This document shows, piece after piece, positions 1 through 13,801 of a DNA stretch of 13,801 nt; position 1 is the stretch's first letter, and each line of letters begins with the position of its first letter. The DNA comes from a virus. The translations under genes and the position numbers were made by a program. The stretch covers positions 1-13,801 of the IMG/VR virus record IMGVR_UViG_3300045988_042395; one strand, 5' to 3'. The notes beneath the pieces were generated by a model, which was not told where the DNA came from, did no database searches, and saw only the letters and a program-made list of their open reading frames with translations.

Positions 1-180
1 GATAATAGCAGATTGCACAAAAATTTATTCCCCAACAGCCAAAACTTTGTGCAAAATGTCAATAGACACAAAATATAGTGCCCATACCCCTCAGGGTAGG
101 GGAGTACAGCAATTTTTACAATGTAAATAGCAATTTTTACAATGTAAATAGCAATTTTTACAATGTAAATAGCAACATAT
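1..180. repeat. Left inverted terminal repeat (180 bp)
   Basis: Bases 1-180 equal the reverse complement of 13643-13801 base for base, except that the left copy has one additional 21-bp unit. Degenerate similarity continues to about 185. Confidence 0.95.
108..175. repeat. 21-bp tandem repeat AGCAATTTTTACAATGTAAAT, 3 full copies plus 5 bp
   Basis: Exact copies lie at 108-128, 129-149 and 150-170, then AGCAA at 171-175. Each unit contains the 13-bp palindrome TTTACA-A-TGTAAA (115-127, 136-148, 157-169). Confidence 0.95.
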
Positions 181-185
181 GCAAT
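115..185 (+). promoter_or_regulatory. Phased array of SigA/sigma70-like promoters created by the 21-bp repeat
   Basis: The first pair is -35 TTTACA (115-120), a 17-nt spacer and -10 TACAAT (138-143). The same pair recurs at 136-141 / 159-164. A weaker third pair has TTTACA at 157-162 and TGCAAT at 180-185. All read inward toward the first gene. Confidence 0.5.
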
Positions 186-193
186 TTAGTGTA

Positions 194-202
194 TGGTATA
201 AT
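194..202 (+). promoter_or_regulatory. Extended -10 element TGGTATAAT
   Basis: TGnTATAAT lies at 194-202, just inside the unique region and 77 nt upstream of the first ATG. No good -35 is present; the 174-179 position reads AACATA. Confidence 0.4.
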
Positions 203-278
203 ATAGACAATGAAAAAGAAGTCATGATTAAAATCACTTTAACCGGTGATAACATTACTCTTGATGGAGGTGCTATAA

Positions 279-551
279 ATGGAACTGCGTAAATTCATTA
301 TTGAGATTCACCCGGATGGCAAATTGACGTGGTGCGAGTACGAGGACCCGAAAGACGCTAATCGAGCCGCACTAGATCGAGCGTGGTTCGATGGTTATCG
401 ACAAGTCCTCGAGCATTGTGACGAGCAGGTAAAATATTTAAAGAAGTTTAAAGATATTTGCCTCTCATCTAAACTTATGTACTATGGAGCTAAATCTGTC
501 CAAGAGGCGTTATTATCTTCTTACTGTGAATACATTAAAGGGAAACACTAA
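279..551 (+). CDS. Hypothetical early protein (90 aa)
   Basis: The ORF is preceded by GGAGG (266-270), 8 nt before the ATG. It is the first gene after the left-end promoters. I recognise no motif. Confidence 0.7.
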   Translation: MELRKFIIEIHPDGKLTWCEYEDPKDANRAALDRAWFDGYRQVLEHCDEQVKYLKKFKDICLSSKLMYYGAKSVQEALLSSYCEYIKGKH

Positions 552-557
552 GTCGAA

Positions 558-596
558 ACGGCCTCCGGGCCGTCTACCGGGACCGCCCGCCCGGTA
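558..596 (+). promoter_or_regulatory. Twin GC-rich hairpins in the intergenic region
   Basis: Hairpin 1 pairs ACGGCC (558-563) with GGCCGT (568-573) around the loop TCCG. Hairpin 2 pairs TACCGGG (575-581) with CCCGGTA (590-596) around an 8-nt loop. No U-tract follows either hairpin. Confidence 0.3.
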
Positions 597-634
597 CTGA
601 TGATGACAGGGCACATAATGAAAGGAGCTATATT

Positions 635-1346: not shown

Positions 1347-1936
1347 GCGCAGCTAAAGCAAGTGCAACCCTTAAATACAGCTCCGAGCTGTACACCCCCT
1401 ATGCGTTGGAATCGTGGCCTGATAAGCAGATGCGCAAAGAATATACACGACTGCGCGATATTGCGCAGAAACGTATTAGGCGCCTATCAAAAGACCCCAT
1501 TAGCGGCACAAGCGACATTTATAAAGAATTCGCCGGAGGTTTCCCAACCCTAAAGGCAATGCGCGGAGACCGTAAAGCATTGGAGCAGGCGTTAGCGGAT
1601 GTAGCGCGTTTTGTGCGCTCTAAAGGTTCCACAGTAGGCGGTGCCCGTGAGGAATTCAAGCAAAAAATGAAAGTTGGGGGTATTGATGTAGCCGACGTGC
1701 CCGAGGATCAGTACACGGCCCTGTCGGAATGGTGGGAGATCGTGAAAGCATCGGGCGTATACTATTATCCGTCCGATCAGCCGGTTATATACTGGCGCGA
1801 GAGAGGAGGCTACAATGTCAGTATTGACGATTTTGTAAAGTGGCAGCAAGGCGAGGTTAACTATGGTAAAGAATGGGACTACAGCGGCAGCAGCAGTTCC
1901 GCCGACCTGCGCGGAGGTTTTGGAGGCGGCTTGTAA
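1337..1936 (+). CDS. Candidate terminal protein (TP) for protein-primed replication, 199 aa
   Basis: The ORF lies immediately upstream of the protein-primed polymerase ORF and overlaps it, as the TP gene does in phi29. It has a basic N-terminal segment (KEYTRLRDIAQKRIRRLSK) reminiscent of the phi29 TP N-terminus, and a Ser-rich, acidic and aromatic C-terminus. The call rests on position and composition only. Confidence 0.5.
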   Translation: MAVGAAKASATLKYSSELYTPYALESWPDKQMRKEYTRLRDIAQKRIRRLSKDPISGTSDIYKEFAGGFPTLKAMRGDRKALEQALADVARFVRSKGSTVGGAREEFKQKMKVGGIDVADVPEDQYTALSEWWEIVKASGVYYYPSDQPVIYWRERGGYNVSIDDFVKWQQGEVNYGKEWDYSGSSSSADLRGGFGGGL

Positions 1937-3953
1937 TTATAACCCTGTCCCGTGGCTTATGGAGCATTTAGACCGCAAACACACAAAAGGCAAGAAACGC
2001 AAAACGAACAAGAGGCGCTTATATGTGAATATGCCGTGTGCGTTTGATATTGAGACTAGCCGAGTATGTGTTGACGCGGACGACAATCCCCACACCATAA
2101 TGTATATTTGGCAGTGTCAACTCGGTCTGGATATTACCATTATTGGTAGGACTTGGGACGAGTGGCTGAACTTCACGGGAGCAATCAGCGACTATTTGCA
2201 AGCAAACAGCGGTCCGCAGGGTGACTGGTTTCTGTGTATGTACGTTCACAATCTTGCACATGAATTTCAATATTTATCGGGTATACTGGATTTTGGGCCC
2301 GGGGATGTATTCGCCAGCAAACCGCGCAGGGTCTTAAAATGTGATAACCGCGCTATAGAATACAGATGCAGTATGCGACACAGCAATTTATCCCTTGATG
2401 CTTGGGGCAAACAGCTTGGTGCCCCTCATGCCAAACTGACCGGAGCACTTGATTACTCAAAGGTCCGATACCCATGGACTCCCTTAACGTCTACAGAATT
2501 AGCGTATTGTATCAATGATGTCAGGTGTATTGTGGAGTGCCTGTTAATCGAGATGCACCGTGATGGCGATGACCTGTACACTCTGCCATTGACGCGCACC
2601 GGGTATGTCAGGCGAATGGCTCGAGAGGCTATGTACGAATGGGGCATTAAAAGGGTCAGGCGCCTGTTGCCATCATGGGACCTATACCAGATGCTGCGGG
2701 AAGCGTTCCGAGGAGGTGACACGCACGCAAACCGCTATTATGTAGGGTTGCATTTGGAAAACGTGGGTTCCGTGGATATGTCGAGTGCATACCCAGCCGT
2801 ACAATGTGAATGTTATTTTCCTATGACTCCATTTAGGAAGGAACCTGCCACCGTAGGGCGTTTGATGCAATGTATGAGGCACGGCAAGGCTTGCTTGATG
2901 CGCTTGCAAGTAAAAGGTTTGCGCCAACGCTTTAAGTGGTGGGGGTTTCCGTATATCCCCCTTGCAAAGGTTCGACATTGTGAAGGATACATTAACGACA
3001 ATGGCCGTCTGCTGTCTGCTGAACATTTCGAGATTACCATAACTGATATAGATTTTAGAATCATTGCTAAAGAGTATGACTGGGACGCCCTTAATGTTCG
3101 GGATCTGTACACGTCCGATTATGGCAAACTGCCACCGCCCTTGACGGATTGTATAAAAGAGAGTTATACCGGCAAGACATCCCTTAAAGGGGTGGCCGGT
3201 CAAAATTTGTATTATGTTAAGGCTAAGAACGATCTCAATAGCTATTACGGCATGACCGCCCAGGACCCCTTGCAGCTGGACACACTTTTTGACGAGGACG
3301 ACCCCGACAATCTTTGGAGCGAGTGTACCGATGACCCGGAGGGCAGTTATAACGAGCATCGCCCCCACTTGTTTTTGCCTTACCAATGGGGCGTCTGGAC
3401 AACGGCCCACACCCGCAAGCGCCTAAAAATAGCGCAATGGGCCGCGGGCAAGAATGGGGTTTACTGCGACACTGACAGCGTCAAATACATGGGCAATATT
3501 GATTTGTCGGACTTTAACAAAGCCGTAAAGCAGCTCGCAAAAGACAATGGCGCTTGTGCCACCGACCCAAAAGGCAACACTCATTATATGGGTGTGTACG
3601 AGCAGGAGCACAGCTATGCGGAGTTTATGACATGGGGCGCAAAAAAATACGCGACTACCTATAGAAAGGGAGGGCCGATCACTACTACCATAGCAGGAGT
3701 TAGCAAACGGAAAGGCGGTTTGGAGCTGGCCCTGTGGGGCGGTTTTGATGTATTTAAGCCCGGGTTTACTTTTTGTTTGGCTGCAGGAAATCAGGTTATT
3801 TATAATGATCGCCCCAATGTGCCCGATTTTGTGGTAGATGGACATACAGTCCACATCACCCGCAATTTGTGTATTTGTGATAATACCTATACACTCGGCA
3901 TCACGGACGAGTATGCAAAGATACTCGGGTATAAGATCATGGAGGTTATATAA
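1863..3953 (+). CDS. Family-B DNA polymerase, protein-primed type
   Basis: The recognisable motifs are ExoI FDIETS, ExoII-like HNLAHEF, ExoIII YCINDV, motif A DMSSAYP, motif B KNDLNSYYG, motif C YCDTDS and a KKY motif. The ATG at 1863 has GAGG 6 nt upstream. An alternative ATG at 1959, downstream of the TP stop, has no RBS. Confidence 0.93.
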   Translation: MVKNGTTAAAAVPPTCAEVLEAACNYNPVPWLMEHLDRKHTKGKKRKTNKRRLYVNMPCAFDIETSRVCVDADDNPHTIMYIWQCQLGLDITIIGRTWDEWLNFTGAISDYLQANSGPQGDWFLCMYVHNLAHEFQYLSGILDFGPGDVFASKPRRVLKCDNRAIEYRCSMRHSNLSLDAWGKQLGAPHAKLTGALDYSKVRYPWTPLTSTELAYCINDVRCIVECLLIEMHRDGDDLYTLPLTRTGYVRRMAREAMYEWGIKRVRRLLPSWDLYQMLREAFRGGDTHANRYYVGLHLENVGSVDMSSAYPAVQCECYFPMTPFRKEPATVGRLMQCMRHGKACLMRLQVKGLRQRFKWWGFPYIPLAKVRHCEGYINDNGRLLSAEHFEITITDIDFRIIAKEYDWDALNVRDLYTSDYGKLPPPLTDCIKESYTGKTSLKGVAGQNLYYVKAKNDLNSYYGMTAQDPLQLDTLFDEDDPDNLWSECTDDPEGSYNEHRPHLFLPYQWGVWTTAHTRKRLKIAQWAAGKNGVYCDTDSVKYMGNIDLSDFNKAVKQLAKDNGACATDPKGNTHYMGVYEQEHSYAEFMTWGAKKYATTYRKGGPITTTIAGVSKRKGGLELALWGGFDVFKPGFTFCLAAGNQVIYNDRPNVPDFVVDGHTVHITRNLCICDNTYTLGITDEYAKILGYKIMEVI

Positions 3954-4378: not shown

Positions 4379-5436
4379 TTAAACTTTACACCGAAGATGG
4401 TTGGCCTAATTTCTCCGAGGATGACGGCATCTTGTCCACCGGAGCATCTATTATTTTTATATGGGGCGGACGTGGTACCGGCAAGACCTACGGAGCGCTA
4501 AAGCACGTGCACCAGACCGAGGAAGAATTTCTATATCTGCGCCGCACGCCGCAGCAGGCGGAACTTATTTGCGCCTCGCCCAGTATGTGGCCGTGGTCTC
4601 CATTGAATGACGATTTGCAAACGCATTACGCCCCGTTCAAATTGCCCAAAATAGCAGGACTGTATGAAGTGGGCAATGCAGGAGCCTACACGGATACAGG
4701 AGCGCCCATAAAACCGGCCAAGATGTCGGGCGTAGTGGGTAGTGTGGTGACTCTTGCTCGCACCCGTGGTTTTTCAAGCCCCCATACCAATATAATTATT
4801 TTGGACGAGTATCAGAAAGAAGAGTCCGACTATTACCGGCGGGGTGAGGGCGTGGGCCTTGCCAACATTTATGAAACGGTCAACCGTAACCGCGAATTGC
4901 AAGGGCAAAAGCCCCTGACGCTGTTATGTATGTCAAACGCTGTTGGCATGGCGAACCCCTATTATATGCAGTGGGAAATTACAGATACGGTTGAAAAGAT
5001 GATCGGCAAGAAAGAGCGCGTCAAGCTGTTGGCCGATAAAGGGATTCTTTTGATTGATCTAGTGGACAGCCCTATTGCAAAAGAGAAAGCCAATACGGCC
5101 CTCTATAGGTCCATGACCGGAACGGACTTTTATAGGTCCGCTATTGAAAACCAGTACAGCGCCGAGGAGAAAAGTCTTGTTGTATCCCGGCCCCTCCGGG
5201 AATACTACCCACTTGTTCAAATCGGGCGGTGCTGCATCTATGAGCACAAGAGTAAACCCCTCTACTATGTGTGTCGGCATCGGTCCGGCGAGATGCCCAC
5301 ATACGGCACCGGCGATTATGAGCGTAAACGATTCAGGGCCGCGTATGGGTATATCTGGCCCGCGTATTTGCAGAGGCAAATTGAGTTTGAGCGATACTCG
5401 GATGAAATTTTCTTTCGTGAGTATTGTGGTACTTGA
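4375..5436 (+). CDS. DNA encapsidation (packaging) ATPase, phi29 gp16-like
   Basis: It has Walker A GGRGTGKT and Walker B IIILDEY. The segment LLCMSNAVGMANPYY resembles the gp16 segment CICLSNAVSVVNPYF as I remember it. An ATGA start/stop overlap joins it to the methyltransferase gene. Confidence 0.9.
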   Translation: MIKLYTEDGWPNFSEDDGILSTGASIIFIWGGRGTGKTYGALKHVHQTEEEFLYLRRTPQQAELICASPSMWPWSPLNDDLQTHYAPFKLPKIAGLYEVGNAGAYTDTGAPIKPAKMSGVVGSVVTLARTRGFSSPHTNIIILDEYQKEESDYYRRGEGVGLANIYETVNRNRELQGQKPLTLLCMSNAVGMANPYYMQWEITDTVEKMIGKKERVKLLADKGILLIDLVDSPIAKEKANTALYRSMTGTDFYRSAIENQYSAEEKSLVVSRPLREYYPLVQIGRCCIYEHKSKPLYYVCRHRSGEMPTYGTGDYERKRFRAAYGYIWPAYLQRQIEFERYSDEIFFREYCGT

Positions 5437-5461
5437 CTTTTTTATACGGTTAGTATATATT
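5433..5461 (+). promoter_or_regulatory. Candidate late promoter TTGACT-N17-TATATT
   Basis: The -35 TTGACT (5433-5438) overlaps the ATPase stop codon. A 17-nt spacer separates it from the -10 TATATT (5456-5461). Confidence 0.5.
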
Positions 5462-5467
5462 AAAGTT

Positions 5468-5537
5468 AATCCCAGGTGCCCACAGGCAGCCCCCAGAAGG
5501 GGCGGGCATGCGTCAGCCAGCGCAAGAACCTGGGATT
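5468..5537 (+). promoter_or_regulatory. Structured RNA element (three-way junction): late-mRNA 5' leader or a small RNA
   Basis: The 10-bp outer stem pairs 5468-5477 with 5528-5537. Inner helix 1 pairs 5478-5481 with 5504-5507 and 5489-5493 with 5499-5503, leaving a 7-nt bulge. Inner helix 2 pairs 5509-5512 with 5521-5524. The structure starts about where the 5433-5461 promoter would initiate. Confidence 0.35.
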
Positions 5538-5567
5538 TACTTGTATCTGTATGGGAGGTGATGTTAT

Positions 5568-5905: not shown

Positions 5906-6139
5906 ATGGGTTGTTATATCATCCTCGCCCAGTCGATCACAAACGAGCGCGCGTTTTTGCTGGCTGACCTGTGCACTCGTTTGAACATCGGCTATTATAG
6001 CGACTGGGCAGACGTCGCCCACACGCGGCAGTGTTGCGCGGTGGGCCCTCTGTCCAAAGGAGACAAAGACCAGGTCGTTAAATGCCTGGCACATGACACA
6101 CACGTTGTATTGGAGGCGACCAAAGTTGAAAATCAGTGA
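5906..6139 (+). CDS. Hypothetical protein (77 aa, 5 Cys)
   Basis: The ATG lies 2 nt after the holin stop, with a G-rich RBS-like run upstream. By hand count, third-codon-position GC is about 65%, similar to the capsid gene. I recognise no motif and see no TM segment. Confidence 0.5.
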   Translation: MGCYIILAQSITNERAFLLADLCTRLNIGYYSDWADVAHTRQCCAVGPLSKGDKDQVVKCLAHDTHVVLEATKVENQ

Positions 6140-6485
6140 AAAAGCGGCCCTTGCAATGGCCGGATACACCAAAGCAGAAATTGAAGCTATGGAGAGGCCC
6201 ACGCCGCAGCCCGTGCCGCAGCCCGTACAGCAGCCCGTACAGCAGCCCGTGCCGCAGCCCGTGCCGCAGCCCGCGCCGCAGCCCGCGCCGCAGTATGACG
6301 GCCTCGAAACCCTGTTGCAGCAGATTTTGCAGGGCCAGCAGACCAGCGCCCAGGCAATGCAGACTATGACCCAGACGCTGCAGGCAAACGCGCTGGGCCT
6401 TGGCATTCAGCCGCAGCCGGCGGCAGATGCCGCTACGGTGACAGCCCGAATCATCGACCCTACCTATGGAAAGGAAGTGAAGTAA
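6126..6485 (+). CDS. Putative scaffolding protein with a Pro/Gln repeat linker (about 119 aa from a TTG start)
   Basis: The gene lies directly upstream of the capsid gene, as phi29 gene 7 does. TTG at 6126 has GGAGG (6112-6116) 9 nt upstream, whereas the in-frame ATG at 6093 has no RBS. The C-terminal half is Gln-rich and looks helical. Confidence 0.45.
   Translation: MKISEKAALAMAGYTKAEIEAMERPTPQPVPQPVQQPVQQPVPQPVPQPAPQPAPQYDGLETLLQQILQGQQTSAQAMQTMTQTLQANALGLGIQPQPAADAATVTARIIDPTYGKEVK
6204..6293 (+). repeat. 12-bp tandem repeat CCGCAGCCCGTG, about 7.5 copies
   Basis: The imperfect repeat encodes PQPVPQPVQQPVQQPVPQPVPQPAPQPAPQ within the scaffold candidate. Confidence 0.9.
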
Positions 6486-9748: not shown

Positions 9749-10686
9749 GCGCCCCCTACAGCTATGAGCAAATCAACGCTCATGTGTCCCCGGTGACTCC
9801 CTCCGTAATGCACACCAAGGGCAACAGCTTATCCTATTATTTCCGCAAATATCTGTTTCTTGAAGCTGTGTCTATGGTCCGGTGGACGCTCCCCGACACT
9901 TGGCCCAGTAACCGCTTGCAATATCTTGTATTCGGTTCCGGAGGTGTTACGGTGTTCGATACTGACCGCTACGGCCTCGTTTATGACCGAATGGGACTGA
10001 CCGGCATTAACATTTTTTACAATCCCACACACTCCATCATTGCAAACCCTTTTATCAAAGGGTCCCCCTATTTGCAAATCGGGAAGCAGTGCGAGATCAT
10101 CAATTTACAGCCCGATTACCGCGGCATGGTGGATATTGTGGCCTATTATGGGGATATGATGGCCCTTGCTGCCCAGACCATCCAAAGCAATTTAATTAAC
10201 AGCCGGTTGGCGTATGTGTTCGCCTCTGGTAACAAGGCCGGTGCAGAATCTTTTAAAAAGATGTTCGACCAGATCATGCAGGGTGACCCCGCCGTTTTTG
10301 TGGATTCCTCTTTGCTCAAAGCGCCCAAAAATGGGGCATCCGGGCAAGCCCCATGGATGTACTTTGCGACAGACCTTAAAGGGAACTTTATCACCAACGA
10401 ACTGCTGACAGCCCTTAAAACCATAAAAGCCCTGTTTGATACGGAAGTCGGGATCCCTAACACCAACACAAGCAAGAAAGAGCGGATGTTGACCGATGAA
10501 GTCAACTCTAACAACGTTGAGACAGCCGCCAAAGCGTCGCTATGGTTGGACAGCTTACAGCGTGGGTGTGAGCGGGTGCACAAGCTCTTTGGGATTGACA
10601 AATCTACTTTATGGGTCGATTGGCGTTTTCCGCCCGATACTGGGACGCAGGAGGTAAACAACGATGCACGCAACATTGAGCTTTAA
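9745..10686 (+). CDS. Head-tail connector (portal / upper collar), phi29 gp10-like, 313 aa
   Basis: KKERMLTDEVNSNN resembles the gp10 segment KKERMVTDEVSSND as I remember it. The size is close to the 309 aa of gp10. An ATGA overlap joins it to the M23 gene, and GGAGG lies 9 nt upstream of the start. Confidence 0.85.
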   Translation: MSAPYSYEQINAHVSPVTPSVMHTKGNSLSYYFRKYLFLEAVSMVRWTLPDTWPSNRLQYLVFGSGGVTVFDTDRYGLVYDRMGLTGINIFYNPTHSIIANPFIKGSPYLQIGKQCEIINLQPDYRGMVDIVAYYGDMMALAAQTIQSNLINSRLAYVFASGNKAGAESFKKMFDQIMQGDPAVFVDSSLLKAPKNGASGQAPWMYFATDLKGNFITNELLTALKTIKALFDTEVGIPNTNTSKKERMLTDEVNSNNVETAAKASLWLDSLQRGCERVHKLFGIDKSTLWVDWRFPPDTGTQEVNNDARNIEL

Positions 10687-11353: not shown

Positions 11354-11365
11354 GGAGATGTGATT

Positions 11366-13606
11366 ATGAGTATCAATCCTATTCACAGAGCACCCTACAC
11401 CAATTTCCATGATCTCAATCTTGATTGGATTATGGATAAGTTAAACGAGTTCAATACCAAACTGACGAATTTCGTCAGCCTAGCAACGATCAAGTACGCA
11501 AACCCGATTCAGTGGGACATCACAAGCCAGTATGAGGCAAACACCGTTGTTGTGGACAGCAACGGCAACGCCTATCTTTCCGTGCAGCCGGTGCCGTCCG
11601 GTGTTTCTCTGGATCGCACCGAGTTCTGGACCAAAATCGGCAACTTCGATGTGCTTTGGGCCGATGTCAAAAAGGCCATTACTCCCACCGATGAGGGCCA
11701 CAGCCCCACCGCGACAGCTGCAAGAGCTATCAACGATCTTGTCTGGGTCAATGGGGCGCTTGTGCGTGTCACAAAAACAATGATCGCCGGTGATGCTTAT
11801 GTACCCGGCTCTAACTGCGTTAGCAGCTCCACAAATGAAGTCCTGCACTACCTTATCACTGCGTTTAATGAGGGCTTGAGCGCCGAGAAAACGGCCCGAG
11901 AGAACGCCGACACCCAGCTTCAGACGGCTATCGGCGCGGAGCAGACGGCCCGGGAGAACGCCGACACACAGCTTCAGACGGCTATCGGCGCGGAGCAGAC
12001 GGCCCGGGAGAACGCCGACACACAGCTACAGAAGGCGATCGACAATGAGACACAGGCGCGTATTACGGCAGATGAAAAATTACAAAAACAGATTGAGAAT
12101 GTATCCTCTACTGCATTTGCTAACGTTAAGGACTACGGCGCAGCAGGCACCGGCATAGCGGATGATACGGCGGCTATTAAAAAGGCTATTGCGTCCGGTC
12201 TTCCACTGCTTTTTCCGGATGGTACATACAGTATTACGCAGGACGTCACACTGACCGGTGCATACTTTGCGCACAAAGCAATGGTGATTGCGTACGGATG
12301 TACAGTAACGATCACCGCACCGATTGCCGGTGCTAGCTGTCATTTCCGCAAAACAAACAGCGGCACGATCAAGATGACAGATAGCGTTGTACTGGTTGAC
12401 TGGTTTAACTATGAAGGCGATTTGGGATCTGCTCTCAGCGATTATCTCTTAGGTTATGAGGGTACAGTAAAGTTTGGTCGTCCTGCTACATATGCTGGAC
12501 TAGGTACTGATACTACTTACGTTGTAAGTAATAATATTTATCTTCAACCGCACACAACATACGATTTGCAGGGGTGTGTTATTAAGCTTACTACTGCCAA
12601 CAGCAGATTCATTTTTAACGGTAGTAATACCGCCCATGTGGAGCGCACTATCTTTCGCAATGGCGTTATTATCGGTGCAACCGATGATGTAGACGCGGCT
12701 TTTACTTCGGATTATTCTGAGCGATTCTTCATTGAGGATATGTTTATAATCGGTTGCCGAAAAGTGCTAGAATGTGCGCATACTATCAATATACAGGTGC
12801 GCAATATTATACATGATATTGCACTTGAAACCTCTAAGCCTATTACAAGTTATCATTTAGTAGAGAGTTCCACGGGTGCGACTGGTATCTCCGGCAACGC
12901 CTCTTTCCGCGCAGAAAACTGCATTTCCAGCCTTGGCAGTGCTACCGGGGATCGATGGATGTTCCTTGCTGATTCTTCCAACGATATTCGAGATATTTAT
13001 ATCAGCAACTGCGAATGCAGCAACTCAAATGGCATATGGATTAACGCCTCCGATACACCATCAACGGTCTGGGACATTCTGATTGATGGTTTCATTGCCG
13101 ACCAGTGCCCGCAGACCGGTATTTACTTAACAAATTGTCTTTACGGCGCAGTACATATTCTAAACAGCTATAGTAACGCACCGTCATACGGCATCCGACT
13201 GGTAAAATCAACGGCTGTTATCAATACATGTCAGTTCCTTGCTACGGCACCCATGAATGGTATTTACATCGAGGGGGGGTGTAGGGCGGTTTCTATCAGT
13301 CATTGCACTTTTATCGATGTATCGCGTCCGATTCAAATATCAGACGGCATAGGGACCCTCGTAGACGATATTACGGTAGTGCGCAATACCCTACATGGAG
13401 AAAACGCCCCAGCTGTATTTGTCGGTTCGGAGTGGTGCTTTATTACCCGACTTTCTGGATGGAATATAACACCCGCCTACACAGCAGGTGTTCAGTTTGG
13501 GGCAGGCAACTGTACGTTTGGTTTTATTAACGGCTTTGACCCTACAAAGTATTCAAAACTAGGCGAACCTACAAACATTCAGCAAATTTCCACTGCTGCT
13601 ATTTAA
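11366..13606 (+). CDS. Tail appendage / tailspike with coiled-coil repeats and a right-handed beta-helix (pectate-lyase-3-like) domain
   Basis: AAGGAG (11352-11357) lies 8 nt before the ATG at 11366; the GTG at 11360 in the ORF track is too close to this RBS. NVKDYGAAGTGIADDTAAIKKAI is the hallmark N-terminal motif of the pectate_lyase_3 / tailspike beta-helix. The position matches that of phi29 gp12. Confidence 0.85.
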   Translation: MSINPIHRAPYTNFHDLNLDWIMDKLNEFNTKLTNFVSLATIKYANPIQWDITSQYEANTVVVDSNGNAYLSVQPVPSGVSLDRTEFWTKIGNFDVLWADVKKAITPTDEGHSPTATAARAINDLVWVNGALVRVTKTMIAGDAYVPGSNCVSSSTNEVLHYLITAFNEGLSAEKTARENADTQLQTAIGAEQTARENADTQLQTAIGAEQTARENADTQLQKAIDNETQARITADEKLQKQIENVSSTAFANVKDYGAAGTGIADDTAAIKKAIASGLPLLFPDGTYSITQDVTLTGAYFAHKAMVIAYGCTVTITAPIAGASCHFRKTNSGTIKMTDSVVLVDWFNYEGDLGSALSDYLLGYEGTVKFGRPATYAGLGTDTTYVVSNNIYLQPHTTYDLQGCVIKLTTANSRFIFNGSNTAHVERTIFRNGVIIGATDDVDAAFTSDYSERFFIEDMFIIGCRKVLECAHTINIQVRNIIHDIALETSKPITSYHLVESSTGATGISGNASFRAENCISSLGSATGDRWMFLADSSNDIRDIYISNCECSNSNGIWINASDTPSTVWDILIDGFIADQCPQTGIYLTNCLYGAVHILNSYSNAPSYGIRLVKSTAVINTCQFLATAPMNGIYIEGGCRAVSISHCTFIDVSRPIQISDGIGTLVDDITVVRNTLHGENAPAVFVGSEWCFITRLSGWNITPAYTAGVQFGAGNCTFGFINGFDPTKYSKLGEPTNIQQISTAAI
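11879..12041 (+). repeat. 54-bp tandem repeat, about 2.8 copies, in the tail appendage gene
   Basis: Copies lie at 11891-11944 and 11945-11998, differing at 2 synonymous positions, with a diverging third copy from 11999. They encode TARENADTQLQTAIGAEQ three times. Confidence 0.9.
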
Positions 13607-13612
13607 CCACAA

Positions 13613-13640
13613 CAGCCCCTCGATAGAGGGGCTGTTTATT
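13613..13640 (+). terminator. Rho-independent terminator at the end of the late operon
   Basis: A 9-bp stem pairs CAGCCCCTC (13613-13621) with GAGGGGCTG (13626-13634) around the loop GATA. It is followed by TTTATT, 7 nt after the stop codon. Confidence 0.75.
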
Positions 13641-13687
13641 GTATATGTTGCTATTTACATTGTAAAAATTGCTATTTACATTGTAAA
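13638..13687 (-). promoter_or_regulatory. Inward-facing promoter pair in the right ITR (minus strand)
   Basis: Read on the minus strand, TTTACA-N17-TACAAT occurs twice. One pair has -35 at 13682-13687 and -10 at 13659-13664. The other has -35 at 13661-13666 and -10 at 13638-13643. They point into the 3' end of the tail gene. Confidence 0.4.
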
Positions 13688-13801
13688 AATTGCTGTACTC
13701 CCCTACCCTGAGGGGTATGGGCACTATATTTTGTGTCTATTGACATTTTGCACAAAGTTTTGGCTGTTGGGGAATAAATTTTTGTGCAATCTGCTATTAT
13801 C
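13643..13801. repeat. Right inverted terminal repeat (159 bp)
   Basis: It is the exact reverse complement of the left ITR minus one 21-bp unit, and it runs to the last base of the window. Confidence 0.95.
13648..13694. repeat. 21-bp tandem repeat, 2 full copies plus 5 bp (right ITR)
   Basis: This is the same unit as at 108-175 in reverse complement, with palindromes at 13654-13666 and 13675-13687. Confidence 0.95.

What the first reader, a model, noticed from the sequence alone, without database searches (positions are those of the whole stretch)
108..185. ITR repeats combine 13-bp palindromes with self-generated phased promoters
Each 21-bp unit contains the perfect palindrome TTTACA-A-TGTAAA. 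Because the unit is 21 bp, the TTTACA of one unit sits exactly 17 nt upstream of the TACAAT of the next. Repeat amplification therefore creates consecutive -35/-10 pairs, two good and one weaker on the left. The 21-bp period is about two helical turns, so all palindromes lie on one face of the DNA, as expected for cooperative binding of a dimeric regulator. The operator would coincide with the -35 and -10 hexamers. This could couple origin-proximal nucleoprotein assembly, early transcription and its shut-off in one element. phi29 uses p6 and p4 for these roles, and I see no homologue of either here.
Basis: partly seen in the sequence, partly recalled or inferred. Interest (0 to 1): 0.65.

Follow-up and report, generated by a model that had tools for sequence, protein, structure and literature searches.

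The report
Expanded early-promoter repeat at phage genome ends
The 21-bp repeats are a copy-number expansion of the upstream part of the early promoter of a common human-gut phi29-like phage: almost all relatives carry one copy and the palindrome is not conserved, so this is an ordinary promoter region with a slippage polymorphism, not a dedicated operator array.

Summary
The unit AGCAATTTTTACAATGTAAAT occurs three times at 108-170 and twice at the right end. Each unit junction makes a TTTACA-17-TACAAT pair, and these are the best promoter matches in the genome.

- The window is a complete 13.8-kb phi29-like podovirus. All genes read rightward, so an early promoter must lie in 1-278.
- Of 90 related left ends, 88 have one unit plus an old degenerate copy (window 171-191).
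- The right arm of the palindrome is the most variable part of the unit and shows no compensating changes. A 6-1-6 palindrome is near chance expectation.
- The feature that never varies is an extended -10 promoter, TGnTATA(A/C)T, at window 194-202.
- In most relatives the unit lies outside the ITR.
- Copy numbers of 0, 1, 2 and 3 all occur. Expansions arose independently in at least three unit variants, bounded by AGCAA microhomology.
- Neither candidate early protein (90 aa, 73 aa) shows a recognisable DNA-binding fold, and no p4 or p6 homologue was found.

Best reading: slippage has multiplied the -35/upstream module of the early promoter. This probably adds promoter copies. A functional benefit is unproven.

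The parts
1..107 (+). Core inverted terminal repeat (left copy). It ends at ...CAGGGTAGGGGAGTAC and is conserved in nearly all relatives.
   Evidence: I1: 1-164 versus 13638-13801, 98%; relatives share the core up to GGTAGGGGAGT.
108..170 (+). Three identical 21-bp units, AGCAATTTTTACAATGTAAAT (108-128, 129-149, 150-170). Each contains TTTACAAT (-35-like TTTACA overlapping -10-like TACAAT) and the 13-bp palindrome.
   Evidence: 88 of 90 related left ends have one copy.
171..191 (+). Ancient degenerate copy of the unit (AGCAACATATGCAATTTAGTG, 14/21 identical). It is present in all close relatives and supplies the -10 (TACAAT; TGCAAT here) of the ancestral repeat-straddling promoter Pa.
115..143 (+). 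Pa copy 1, made by the repeat: TTTACA-17-TACAAT (10/12).
136..164 (+). Pa copy 2, made by the repeat: TTTACA-17-TACAAT (10/12).
157..185 (+). The ancestral Pa position: TTTACA-17-TGCAAT. It is weak here because A-11 is replaced by G.
   Evidence: the G variant is seen in 9 of 90 relatives.
194..202 (+). Pb: extended -10 promoter TGGTATAAT, with no good -35. It is the only TGnTATA[AC]T in the genome. The transcription start is inferred at about 208-210.
   Evidence: TG, A-11 and T-7 invariant in 90/90 relatives; retained in L125 and L132.
279..551 (+). First intact early gene (90 aa; beta-hairpin plus two long helices). It occupies the position that p6 has in the phi29 early operon. No fold or family match.
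13653..13694 (-). Two units at the right end (13674-13694 and 13653-13673, reverse complement), facing inward.
13638..13652 (-). Right-end copy of the start of the degenerate unit (AGCAACATATACAAT). This is the inner limit of the ITR in this genome.
13611..13636 (+). Terminator hairpin of the late operon. It directly abuts the right-end repeats.
13695..13801 (-). Core inverted terminal repeat (right copy).

Best explanation
What it is. The 21-bp unit is the upstream module of the left-end early promoter region of a phi29-like phage with protein-primed replication. It carries a -35-like hexamer and AT-rich upstream DNA.

The normal state. There is one unit plus an old, diverged copy. Together they give two rightward sigma-A/sigma-70-type promoters about 17 nt apart.
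- Pa is TTTACA-17-TACAAT. Its -35 lies in the unit and its -10 in the degenerate copy.
- Pb is an extended -10 promoter, TGnTATAAT, at window 194-202. With Pb's start near 209, the unit occupies about -40 to -60, where an UP element would sit.

What happened in this lineage. Replication slippage or unequal recombination between the AGCAA words that bound the unit expanded it from one to three copies on the left. In this sub-clade the ITR extends through the unit, so the right end also carries it, here in two copies. TTTACAAT holds both hexamers and the period is 21, so each added copy regenerates a Pa-type pair. This is an automatic consequence of the duplication.

Likely effect. Extra in-phase promoter copies and upstream AT-rich, moderately curved DNA feed the early operon. 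At the right end, the inward-facing copies have no gene to serve and are probably by-products. The perfect palindrome is a lineage-specific coincidence, not an operator.

Shown: the sequence features, their conservation pattern, the copy-number variation and its recurrence. Inferred: that Pa and Pb are used by host RNA polymerase, the slippage mechanism, and any effect on expression.
For: - Genome type and gene direction: protein-primed PolB, phi29 SSB, gp16 ATPase, phi29 MCP and connector, with every gene on the + strand. The early promoter must therefore lie in 1-278.
- Promoter matches: the Pa pairs are the best consensus matches in the genome. Chance of a 10/12 site in the 63-nt segment is about 0.017. 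TGnTATA[AC]T is unique in the genome, with p of about 0.004.
- Conservation of Pb: TG, A-11 and T-7 are invariant in 90/90 left ends. Pb is kept in L125, and in L132, where an 8-nt insertion splits the unit.
- Copy number in relatives: one unit in 88/90 left ends. Right ends have 0 (46 of 52), 1 (5) or 3 (1) units, and 37 of the 52 diverge before the unit.
- Independent expansions in three unit variants: L116 (TTTGCAATGTATAA, x3), L117 (TGTATAT, x3), L115 (x2), L118 right end (x3).
- Slippage signatures: AGCAA flanks both sides of the unit. The reciprocal zero-unit allele (GGGGAGTAC|AGCAACATATA) exists at nine right ends.
- Other slippage products nearby: GAAACAA runs in L004 and L027, a 16-nt duplication in L118, and a deletion between CAATGAAA repeats in the window.
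- The three-copy allele recurs in independent high-k assemblies (L149, L154).
Against: - No transcription start data exist. The host is unknown because the MAG bins disagree, so using the sigma-70/sigma-A consensus is an assumption.
- Unit positions 3-17 are invariant well beyond the -35 hexamer. This hints at an additional constraint, such as a protein-binding site or an UP-like element.
- Expanded alleles have three copies at least as often as two. Simple neutral stepwise slippage does not predict this.
- Pb has no recognisable -35 (sequence).
- More distant clades (L122, L129, L133) lack the unit and carry different 11-bp repeats at the same place. Short upstream repeats may therefore be a functional theme.
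Confidence: 0.6

Rival explanations
1. The palindromes are phased operators for a dimeric phage regulator. The regulator binds cooperatively on one face of the DNA, occludes the -35 and -10 hexamers, and couples origin-proximal nucleoprotein assembly with shut-off of early transcription.
For: - The palindrome is a perfect 13 bp and overlaps the -35 and -10 hexamers.
- The 21-bp phasing is real.
- The array lies 108-170 nt from the terminus. From my own knowledge, this is similar to where phi29 p6 nucleates.
- Two early proteins of unknown function sit at the positions of p6 and p4 in the phi29 gene order (90 aa and 73 aa).
Against: - 88/90 relatives have one unit, so there is no array to bind cooperatively.
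- The right arm of the palindrome (unit positions 18-21) is hypervariable while the left arm is invariant. The A/G polymorphism at position 11 has no compensating change.
- Expanded arrays exist with non-palindromic units (L116: TTTGCAATGTATA).
- The palindrome is near chance expectation.
- No p4 or p6 family hit was found, there is no p4 box, and the 90-aa and 73-aa models match no DNA-binding fold.
- The 144-aa candidate is an SSB.
Confidence: 0.08
2. The unit is a direct-repeat binding site (AGCAA-N5-ACAAT, present in both the unit and the degenerate copy, 21 bp apart). It would be bound by a phage or host DNA-binding or DNA-bending protein that activates the extended -10 promoter or helps open the nearby replication origin. 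Expansion would add binding sites.
For: - The blocks CAATTTTTRCAATGT and AGCAAYATAYNCAAT are invariant or nearly so across 26 haplotypes, while the spacers between them vary.
- The unit keeps a fixed distance to Pb even when it is moved away from the ITR (L125).
- Distant clades have other short direct repeats (GTTCATA, period 11) in the same place.
- The three-copy array is predicted to be among the most curved 60-85-bp segments of the genome.
- Three-copy alleles recur.
Against: - No candidate binding protein was identified.
- The relatives are close (PolB 93-96% identical), so invariance of short blocks is weak evidence.
- In the curvature test, 14.5% of shuffled units repeated three times are as curved, and the L116 variant array is only about average.
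- L132 tolerates an 8-nt insertion inside the unit.
Confidence: 0.17
3. Selectively neutral slippage. The extra copies have no effect on transcription or replication and simply drift in a mutation-prone AT-rich end region.
For: - Expanded alleles are rare: about 1 of 75 IMG/VR left ends and 3 hits in the metagenome scan, although the phage is very common.
- The two ends of the same genome differ (3 versus 2 copies).
- Several other small repeats and deletions occur nearby.
Against: - The added copies are near-consensus promoters in the correct orientation directly upstream of the early operon. It would be unusual for them to be inert.
- Three copies are as frequent as two.
- The three-copy allele persists in several samples.
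Confidence: 0.15

Closest known systems
Tandem sigma-70/sigma-A early promoters at the end of phage genomes (for example T7 A1-A2-A3, and the phi29 early promoters A2b/A2c and C2; from my own knowledge and review PMC11476376)
   Same: Several host-RNA-polymerase promoters in the same orientation at the genome end drive the early operon. The hexamers are near consensus with a 17-nt spacer. Pb has an extended -10 TG.
   Different: Here the extra promoters are exact 21-bp repeat copies spaced too closely (21 bp) to be occupied at the same time. They are present only in rare alleles, and nothing has been mapped experimentally.
Variable-number tandem repeats made by slipped-strand mispairing in promoter regions (contingency-locus-type promoter repeats; from my own knowledge)
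   Same: The copies are perfectly identical, and AGCAA microhomology lies at the boundaries. Copy numbers of 0, 1, 2 and 3 occur among close relatives, and expansion recurred independently.
   Different: The unit is 21 bp, not 1-7 bp. Copy number changes the number of promoters, not the -35/-10 spacing. No evidence of phase-variable switching.
phi29 p4 operators and p6 nucleoprotein complex at genome ends (PMC11476376, PMC4974454)
   Same: Same phage supergroup and the same early-operon order: small protein, SSB, small protein, TP, PolB. There is a repeated AT-rich element about 100-170 nt from the terminus.
   Different: There is no p4 or p6 homologue and no p4 box. The period is 21 bp, not 24. 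The array is absent from 88/90 relatives, and the dyad is not conserved.
UP elements and upstream curved DNA of extended -10 promoters (from my own knowledge)
   Same: The unit is 76% A+T with a T5 and an A3 tract. It sits at about -40 to -60 of Pb, which lacks a -35. The three-copy array is predicted to be curved.
   Different: The match to the UP consensus is only partial (by eye). The curvature is not better than that of many shuffled units. Untested.

Membership tests
Sigma-70/sigma-A promoter | -35 and -10 hexamers close to TTGACA and TATAAT, separated by 16-18 nt, with A at -11 and T at -7 | tested here: met
   TTTACA-17-TACAAT at 115-143 and 136-164, 10/12. The pair at 157-185 fails the A-11 requirement (TGCAAT).
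Sigma-70/sigma-A promoter | Extended -10 (TGnTATAAT) as an alternative to a -35 | tested here: met
   TGGTATAAT at 194-202 is unique in the genome and invariant in its key bases in 90/90 relatives.
Sigma-70/sigma-A promoter | Located upstream of, and oriented towards, a transcription unit | tested here: met
   At the left end, all genes are on the + strand and the first ORFs start at about 210-279. The right-end copies face a region with no gene on that strand.
Sigma-70/sigma-A promoter | Mapped transcription start or RNA polymerase binding | not testable with these tools
   No transcriptome or biochemical data are available, and the host is unknown.
Palindromic operator of a dimeric regulator | Dyad symmetry maintained in relatives, with compensating changes | tested here: not met
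   The right arm is hypervariable and the left arm invariant. The A/G change at position 11 is not compensated. Variants seen: TGTATA, TGTTTA, TGTACA, TGTAAT.
Palindromic operator of a dimeric regulator | Cognate regulator with a DNA-binding domain encoded nearby | tested here: inconclusive
   The 90-aa and 73-aa proteins have no Pfam or PHROG hit. Their AF2 models (pLDDT 86 and 76) have no PDB match with E below 0.7. A novel fold cannot be excluded.
Palindromic operator of a dimeric regulator | Phased multiple sites as a conserved design | tested here: not met
   One unit in 88/90 left ends.
phi29 p4/p6 regulatory system | p4 or p6 homologue present | tested here: not met
   No Pfam or PHROG hit for any small early protein.
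phi29 p4/p6 regulatory system | p4 box CTTTTT-N15-AAAATG near the promoters (pattern recalled from memory) | tested here: not met
   There is one match with 2 mismatches, at 10307, against 1.8 expected by chance, and none near the ends.
Slippage-generated variable-number tandem repeat | Identical head-to-tail copies with copy number differing among close relatives and between the two ends | tested here: met
   100% identical copies. Three versus two copies at the two ends. Copy numbers of 0, 1, 2 and 3 in relatives.
Slippage-generated variable-number tandem repeat | Microhomology at the repeat boundaries and a reciprocal deletion allele | tested here: met
   AGCAA starts both the unit and the following degenerate copy. 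Zero-unit right ends read GGGGAGTAC|AGCAACATATA.
Inverted terminal repeat of a protein-primed linear genome | Identical inverted ends together with a family-B protein-primed polymerase | tested here: met
   1-164 versus 13638-13801 are 98% complementary. PolB of the DNA_pol_B_2 family / phrog_1907.
Inverted terminal repeat of a protein-primed linear genome | The unit is an integral, conserved part of the ITR | tested here: not met
   37 of 52 related right ends diverge before the unit. In L125 the unit is about 50 nt internal to the ITR boundary.

The most novel reading that the evidence does not exclude
The recurrent expansion, in at least three independent lineages and mostly to exactly three copies, is selected for. 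On this reading the 21-bp module acts as a slippage-driven tuning knob for early-gene expression at the genome end. Alternatively, it forms a phased, curved scaffold bound by the uncharacterised 90-aa protein that occupies the p6 position. Either way, copy number would adjust early transcription or origin activation to different hosts.
Probability: 0.15. Interest if true: 0.55.

Novelty: new member of a known kind. Interest (0 to 1): 0.3.

Why it matters
This phage group is very common in human-gut data: the 73-aa protein alone has 1276 clusters at 90% identity. It has no cultured host, so its regulatory layout is known only from sequence. The comparison does three things.
- It locates the probable early promoters: a conserved extended -10 at 194-202 and a second promoter that straddles the repeat.
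- It shows that the inner ITR boundary is a hot spot for slippage and for exchange of sequence modules.
- It gives a natural allelic series (0, 1, 2 and 3 copies) that could be used to test how promoter multiplicity affects a minimal phage.

It also removes an attractive but unsupported operator model.

Tried and rejected
1. Palindrome as operator. Rejected on conservation and chance expectation.
2. Intrinsic curvature as the selected property.
   - The three-copy array bends about 49 degrees over 62 bp, near the top of the genome.
   - However, 14.5% of shuffled units repeated three times do as well, and the L116 variant gives only 26 degrees.
   - Curvature is therefore a generic result of 21-bp phasing and is not evidence of selection.
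3. Looking for a regulator. The 90-aa and 73-aa proteins had no Pfam or PHROG hit even at E up to 5. Their homologues occur only in this phage group and carry no names. AlphaFold models followed by Foldseek against the PDB gave nothing significant.
4. phi29 p4 box. Absent.
5. Host assignment from genome bins. The bins are contradictory: Prevotella, Collinsella and Butyricicoccus MAGs. The review PMC11476376 suggests Clostridia for a similar 13.4-kb genome, but I did not verify that it is the same group.
6. Same-strain comparison of copy number. Two Logan contigs with the window's private deletion show one copy (L152, L157). From my own knowledge, Logan uses k=31, which is shorter than the array, so these cannot be trusted as evidence of rapid change.
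7. GenBank phages. There is only one near relative (MT836263.1), which is unannotated and truncated in the ITR.
8. Literature search. No paper found on this promoter or repeat.

Full report
**What the window is.** The 13,801-nt window is a complete or nearly complete linear genome with inverted terminal repeats; 1-164 is 98% complementary to 13638-13801. All credible genes are on the + strand. They include:
- a phi29-type SSB (635-1069);
- a protein-primed family-B DNA polymerase (1863-3953);
- a Dam methylase;
- a gp16-type packaging ATPase;
- a holin;
- a phi29-type major capsid protein;
- an upper collar connector;
- a tail spike or appendage protein.

The early gene order is 90 aa, SSB, 73 aa, 199 aa, PolB. 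From my own knowledge and PMC11476376, this mirrors the phi29 order p6-p5-p4-p3-p2. Because everything reads rightward, the promoter of the early operon has to lie in the non-coding left end, 1-278.

Tandem Repeats Finder gives a 21-bp period, 3.2 copies and 100% identity at 108-175, and 2.2 copies at 13648-13694. The units are 108-128, 129-149 and 150-170. A degenerate copy (14/21 identical) follows at 171-191. TTTACAATGTAAA is a perfect 6-1-6 palindrome in each unit. TTTACA-17-TACAAT pairs at 115-143 and 136-164, and the inward-facing pairs at the right end, are the top-scoring promoter-like sites in the genome at 10/12. The third left pair ends in TGCAAT and is weak. The arithmetic is right: TTTACAAT carries both hexamers offset by 2 nt, and 21 = 17 + 6 - 2.

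**What chance allows.**
- The repeat itself is not chance.
- The palindrome alone is unremarkable. Six other perfect 6-1-6 palindromes occur in the genome, against 3.5 expected, and p is about 0.06 for one in a one-copy left end.
- A 10/12 site in the 63-nt one-copy segment has p of about 0.017.
- TGnTATA[AC]T has p of about 0.004 there and occurs exactly once in the genome, at 194-202.

**Relatives.** GenBank phages hold one near relative (MT836263.1), which is unannotated. IMG/VR holds 184 polymerase relatives and 49 contigs with the exact unit. Together with later fetches this gave 126 unique contigs and 90 left ends that could be parsed.

*Copy number.*
- 88 of 90 left ends have one unit followed by the degenerate copy. 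The two three-copy ends came from a search aimed at unit junctions.
- Of 52 related right ends, 37 diverge from the left end at GGTAGGGGAGT|GGGCAC, before the unit. The other 15 belong to the window's right-end type: nine have no full unit, five have one and one has three.
- The unit is therefore normally a left-end-specific element at the inner edge of the ITR. It becomes part of the ITR only in a sub-clade.
- In L125 it lies about 50 nt inside the ITR boundary but at the same distance from the downstream -10. It travels with the promoter, not with the terminus.

*Conservation inside the unit (26 in-register haplotypes).*
- Positions 3-10 and 12-16 are invariant.
- Position 11 is A or G.
- Positions 18-21, the outer part of the right palindrome arm, are the most variable in the whole segment (TAAAT, TATAA, TTTAT, TTTGC, TACAC, TATAT).
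- No change compensates another, so the dyad is not under selection.

*Conservation downstream.*
- TG and TATA[A/C]T at canonical positions 45-53 (window 194-202) are invariant in 90/90, including A-11 and T-7.
- The -10 of the repeat-straddling promoter loses A-11 in 10/90 (G or C) and T-7 in 3/90.
- L132 carries an 8-nt insertion inside the unit that destroys the Pa spacing but keeps TGTTATACT.
Pa is probably an auxiliary second promoter.
- With a start near 209, the unit next to Pb covers about -40 to -60, the UP-element position. This is inference.

**Expansion is recurrent.** A junction-specific pattern found four further expanded alleles:
- L116: three copies of a non-palindromic variant, AGCAATTTTTGCAATGTATAA;
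- L117: three copies of AGCAATTTTTACAATGTATAT;
- L115: two copies;
- L118: three copies at its right end.

The window's own allele (three copies, TGCAAT, and a private deletion in the first small ORF) recurs in two independent MEGAHIT assemblies with k of 119 and 127, L149 and L154. It is therefore real and circulating. Two Logan contigs of the same strain show one copy. From my own knowledge, Logan's k=31 is shorter than the array, so I give them no weight.

The unit is bounded by AGCAA on both sides, and the reciprocal zero-unit allele exists. The neighbourhood shows other slippage products: GAAACAA runs, a 16-nt duplication in L118, and a deletion between CAATGAAA repeats in the window. All of this fits microhomology-mediated slippage or unequal exchange.

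**Tests of the operator and nucleoprotein model.**
- No p4 or p6 family hit was found.
- No p4 box lies near the ends.
- The 144-aa candidate is an SSB.
- The 90-aa protein (AF2 pLDDT 86; a beta-hairpin plus two long helices) and the 73-aa protein (pLDDT 76; four helices) match no solved fold.
- Their homologues are confined to this phage group.

**Conclusion.** The array is a copy-number expansion of the -35/upstream module of the left-end early promoter. It was mirrored to the right end because in this sub-clade the ITR runs through it. The phased-palindrome operator is not supported.

**What remains open.**
- Whether the extra copies raise early transcription or are neutral.
- Why unit positions 3-17 are so constrained.
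- Why three copies are seen at least as often as two.
- Distant clades (L122, L129, L133) carry different 11-bp repeats at the same place. Short upstream repeats may therefore have a role that sequence analysis alone cannot define.

Noticed in passing
window 551-615 (+): Full-length type II hammerhead ribozyme match (RF02276, 45.1 bits against a gathering score of 37, E=1e-6). It lies in the gap between the 90-aa gene and the SSB gene, so it sits inside the early transcript. The same match at the same position occurs in diverged relatives L122, L124, L125 and L129 (43-47 bits).
   Followed up: partly
window 203-293, compared with relatives such as L150 and L158: The window's lineage has lost the Shine-Dalgarno sequence and the start of the first small ORF (about 56-58 aa in relatives). 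The cause is a deletion between CAATGAAA direct repeats, and an internal deletion is also present. Only a 5-codon and a 22-codon remnant are left. The conserved ATAGACAATG places an ATG at the inferred Pb start, so the mRNA may be leaderless.
   Followed up: partly
L004 and L027 left ends, just downstream of the -10 (equivalent to window ~212): A GAAACAA heptamer run of variable length (up to about 7 copies) lies in the 5' untranslated region of some relatives. It is a second slippage-prone repeat next to the promoter.
   Followed up: no
window 75-107; right ends of relatives such as L003, L005 and L128: At the inner ITR boundary many relatives have a GC-rich inverted repeat, GTGCCCACACCCCT-TAGGGT-AGGGGAGTGGGCAC. 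At the right end it reads as a terminator-like hairpin. Some contigs carry it duplicated (L038, L039, L113, L128). The boundary looks like a hot spot where different left and right sequence modules are joined.
   Followed up: partly
window 5437-5567: A 131-nt non-coding gap lies between the packaging ATPase and the holin. It has a promoter-like site, TTGACT-17-TATATT (5433-5461), and an inverted repeat (5454-5477 / 5528-5551). It could be a middle or late promoter or a small RNA. No Rfam pRNA match was found anywhere in the genome, although a gp16-type ATPase is present.
   Followed up: no
window 6203-6293: A 12-bp tandem repeat, GCCGCAGCCCGT x7.6, lies inside ORF 6093-6485. Many public contigs of this phage are 5.4-6.1 kb long and end in this repeat (L116, L117, L133), so it probably breaks assemblies.
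   Followed up: no
window 11880-12041: A 54-bp repeat in three copies (85-91% identical) lies inside the tail spike or appendage gene (11360-13606).
   Followed up: no
L129, L133 and L122 left ends: More distant clades (PolB about 60% identical) lack the 21-bp unit. They have GTTCATA-containing 11-bp direct repeats upstream of a conserved TATACTATAGA at the equivalent position.
   Followed up: partly
L119, L120, L121 (genome contigs): Contigs of this phage group are binned into MAGs named Prevotella, Collinsella and Butyricicoccus. The host therefore cannot be read from binning. The holin family and the strong GGGGG Shine-Dalgarno sites suggest a Gram-positive host (inference).
   Followed up: no
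L118 right end; L115: L118 has an extra 16-nt duplication (ACATATACAATAAACA x2) between the array and the terminator. L115 is assembled as a head-to-tail concatenation of terminal segments, probably an assembly artefact caused by the ITR.
   Followed up: no
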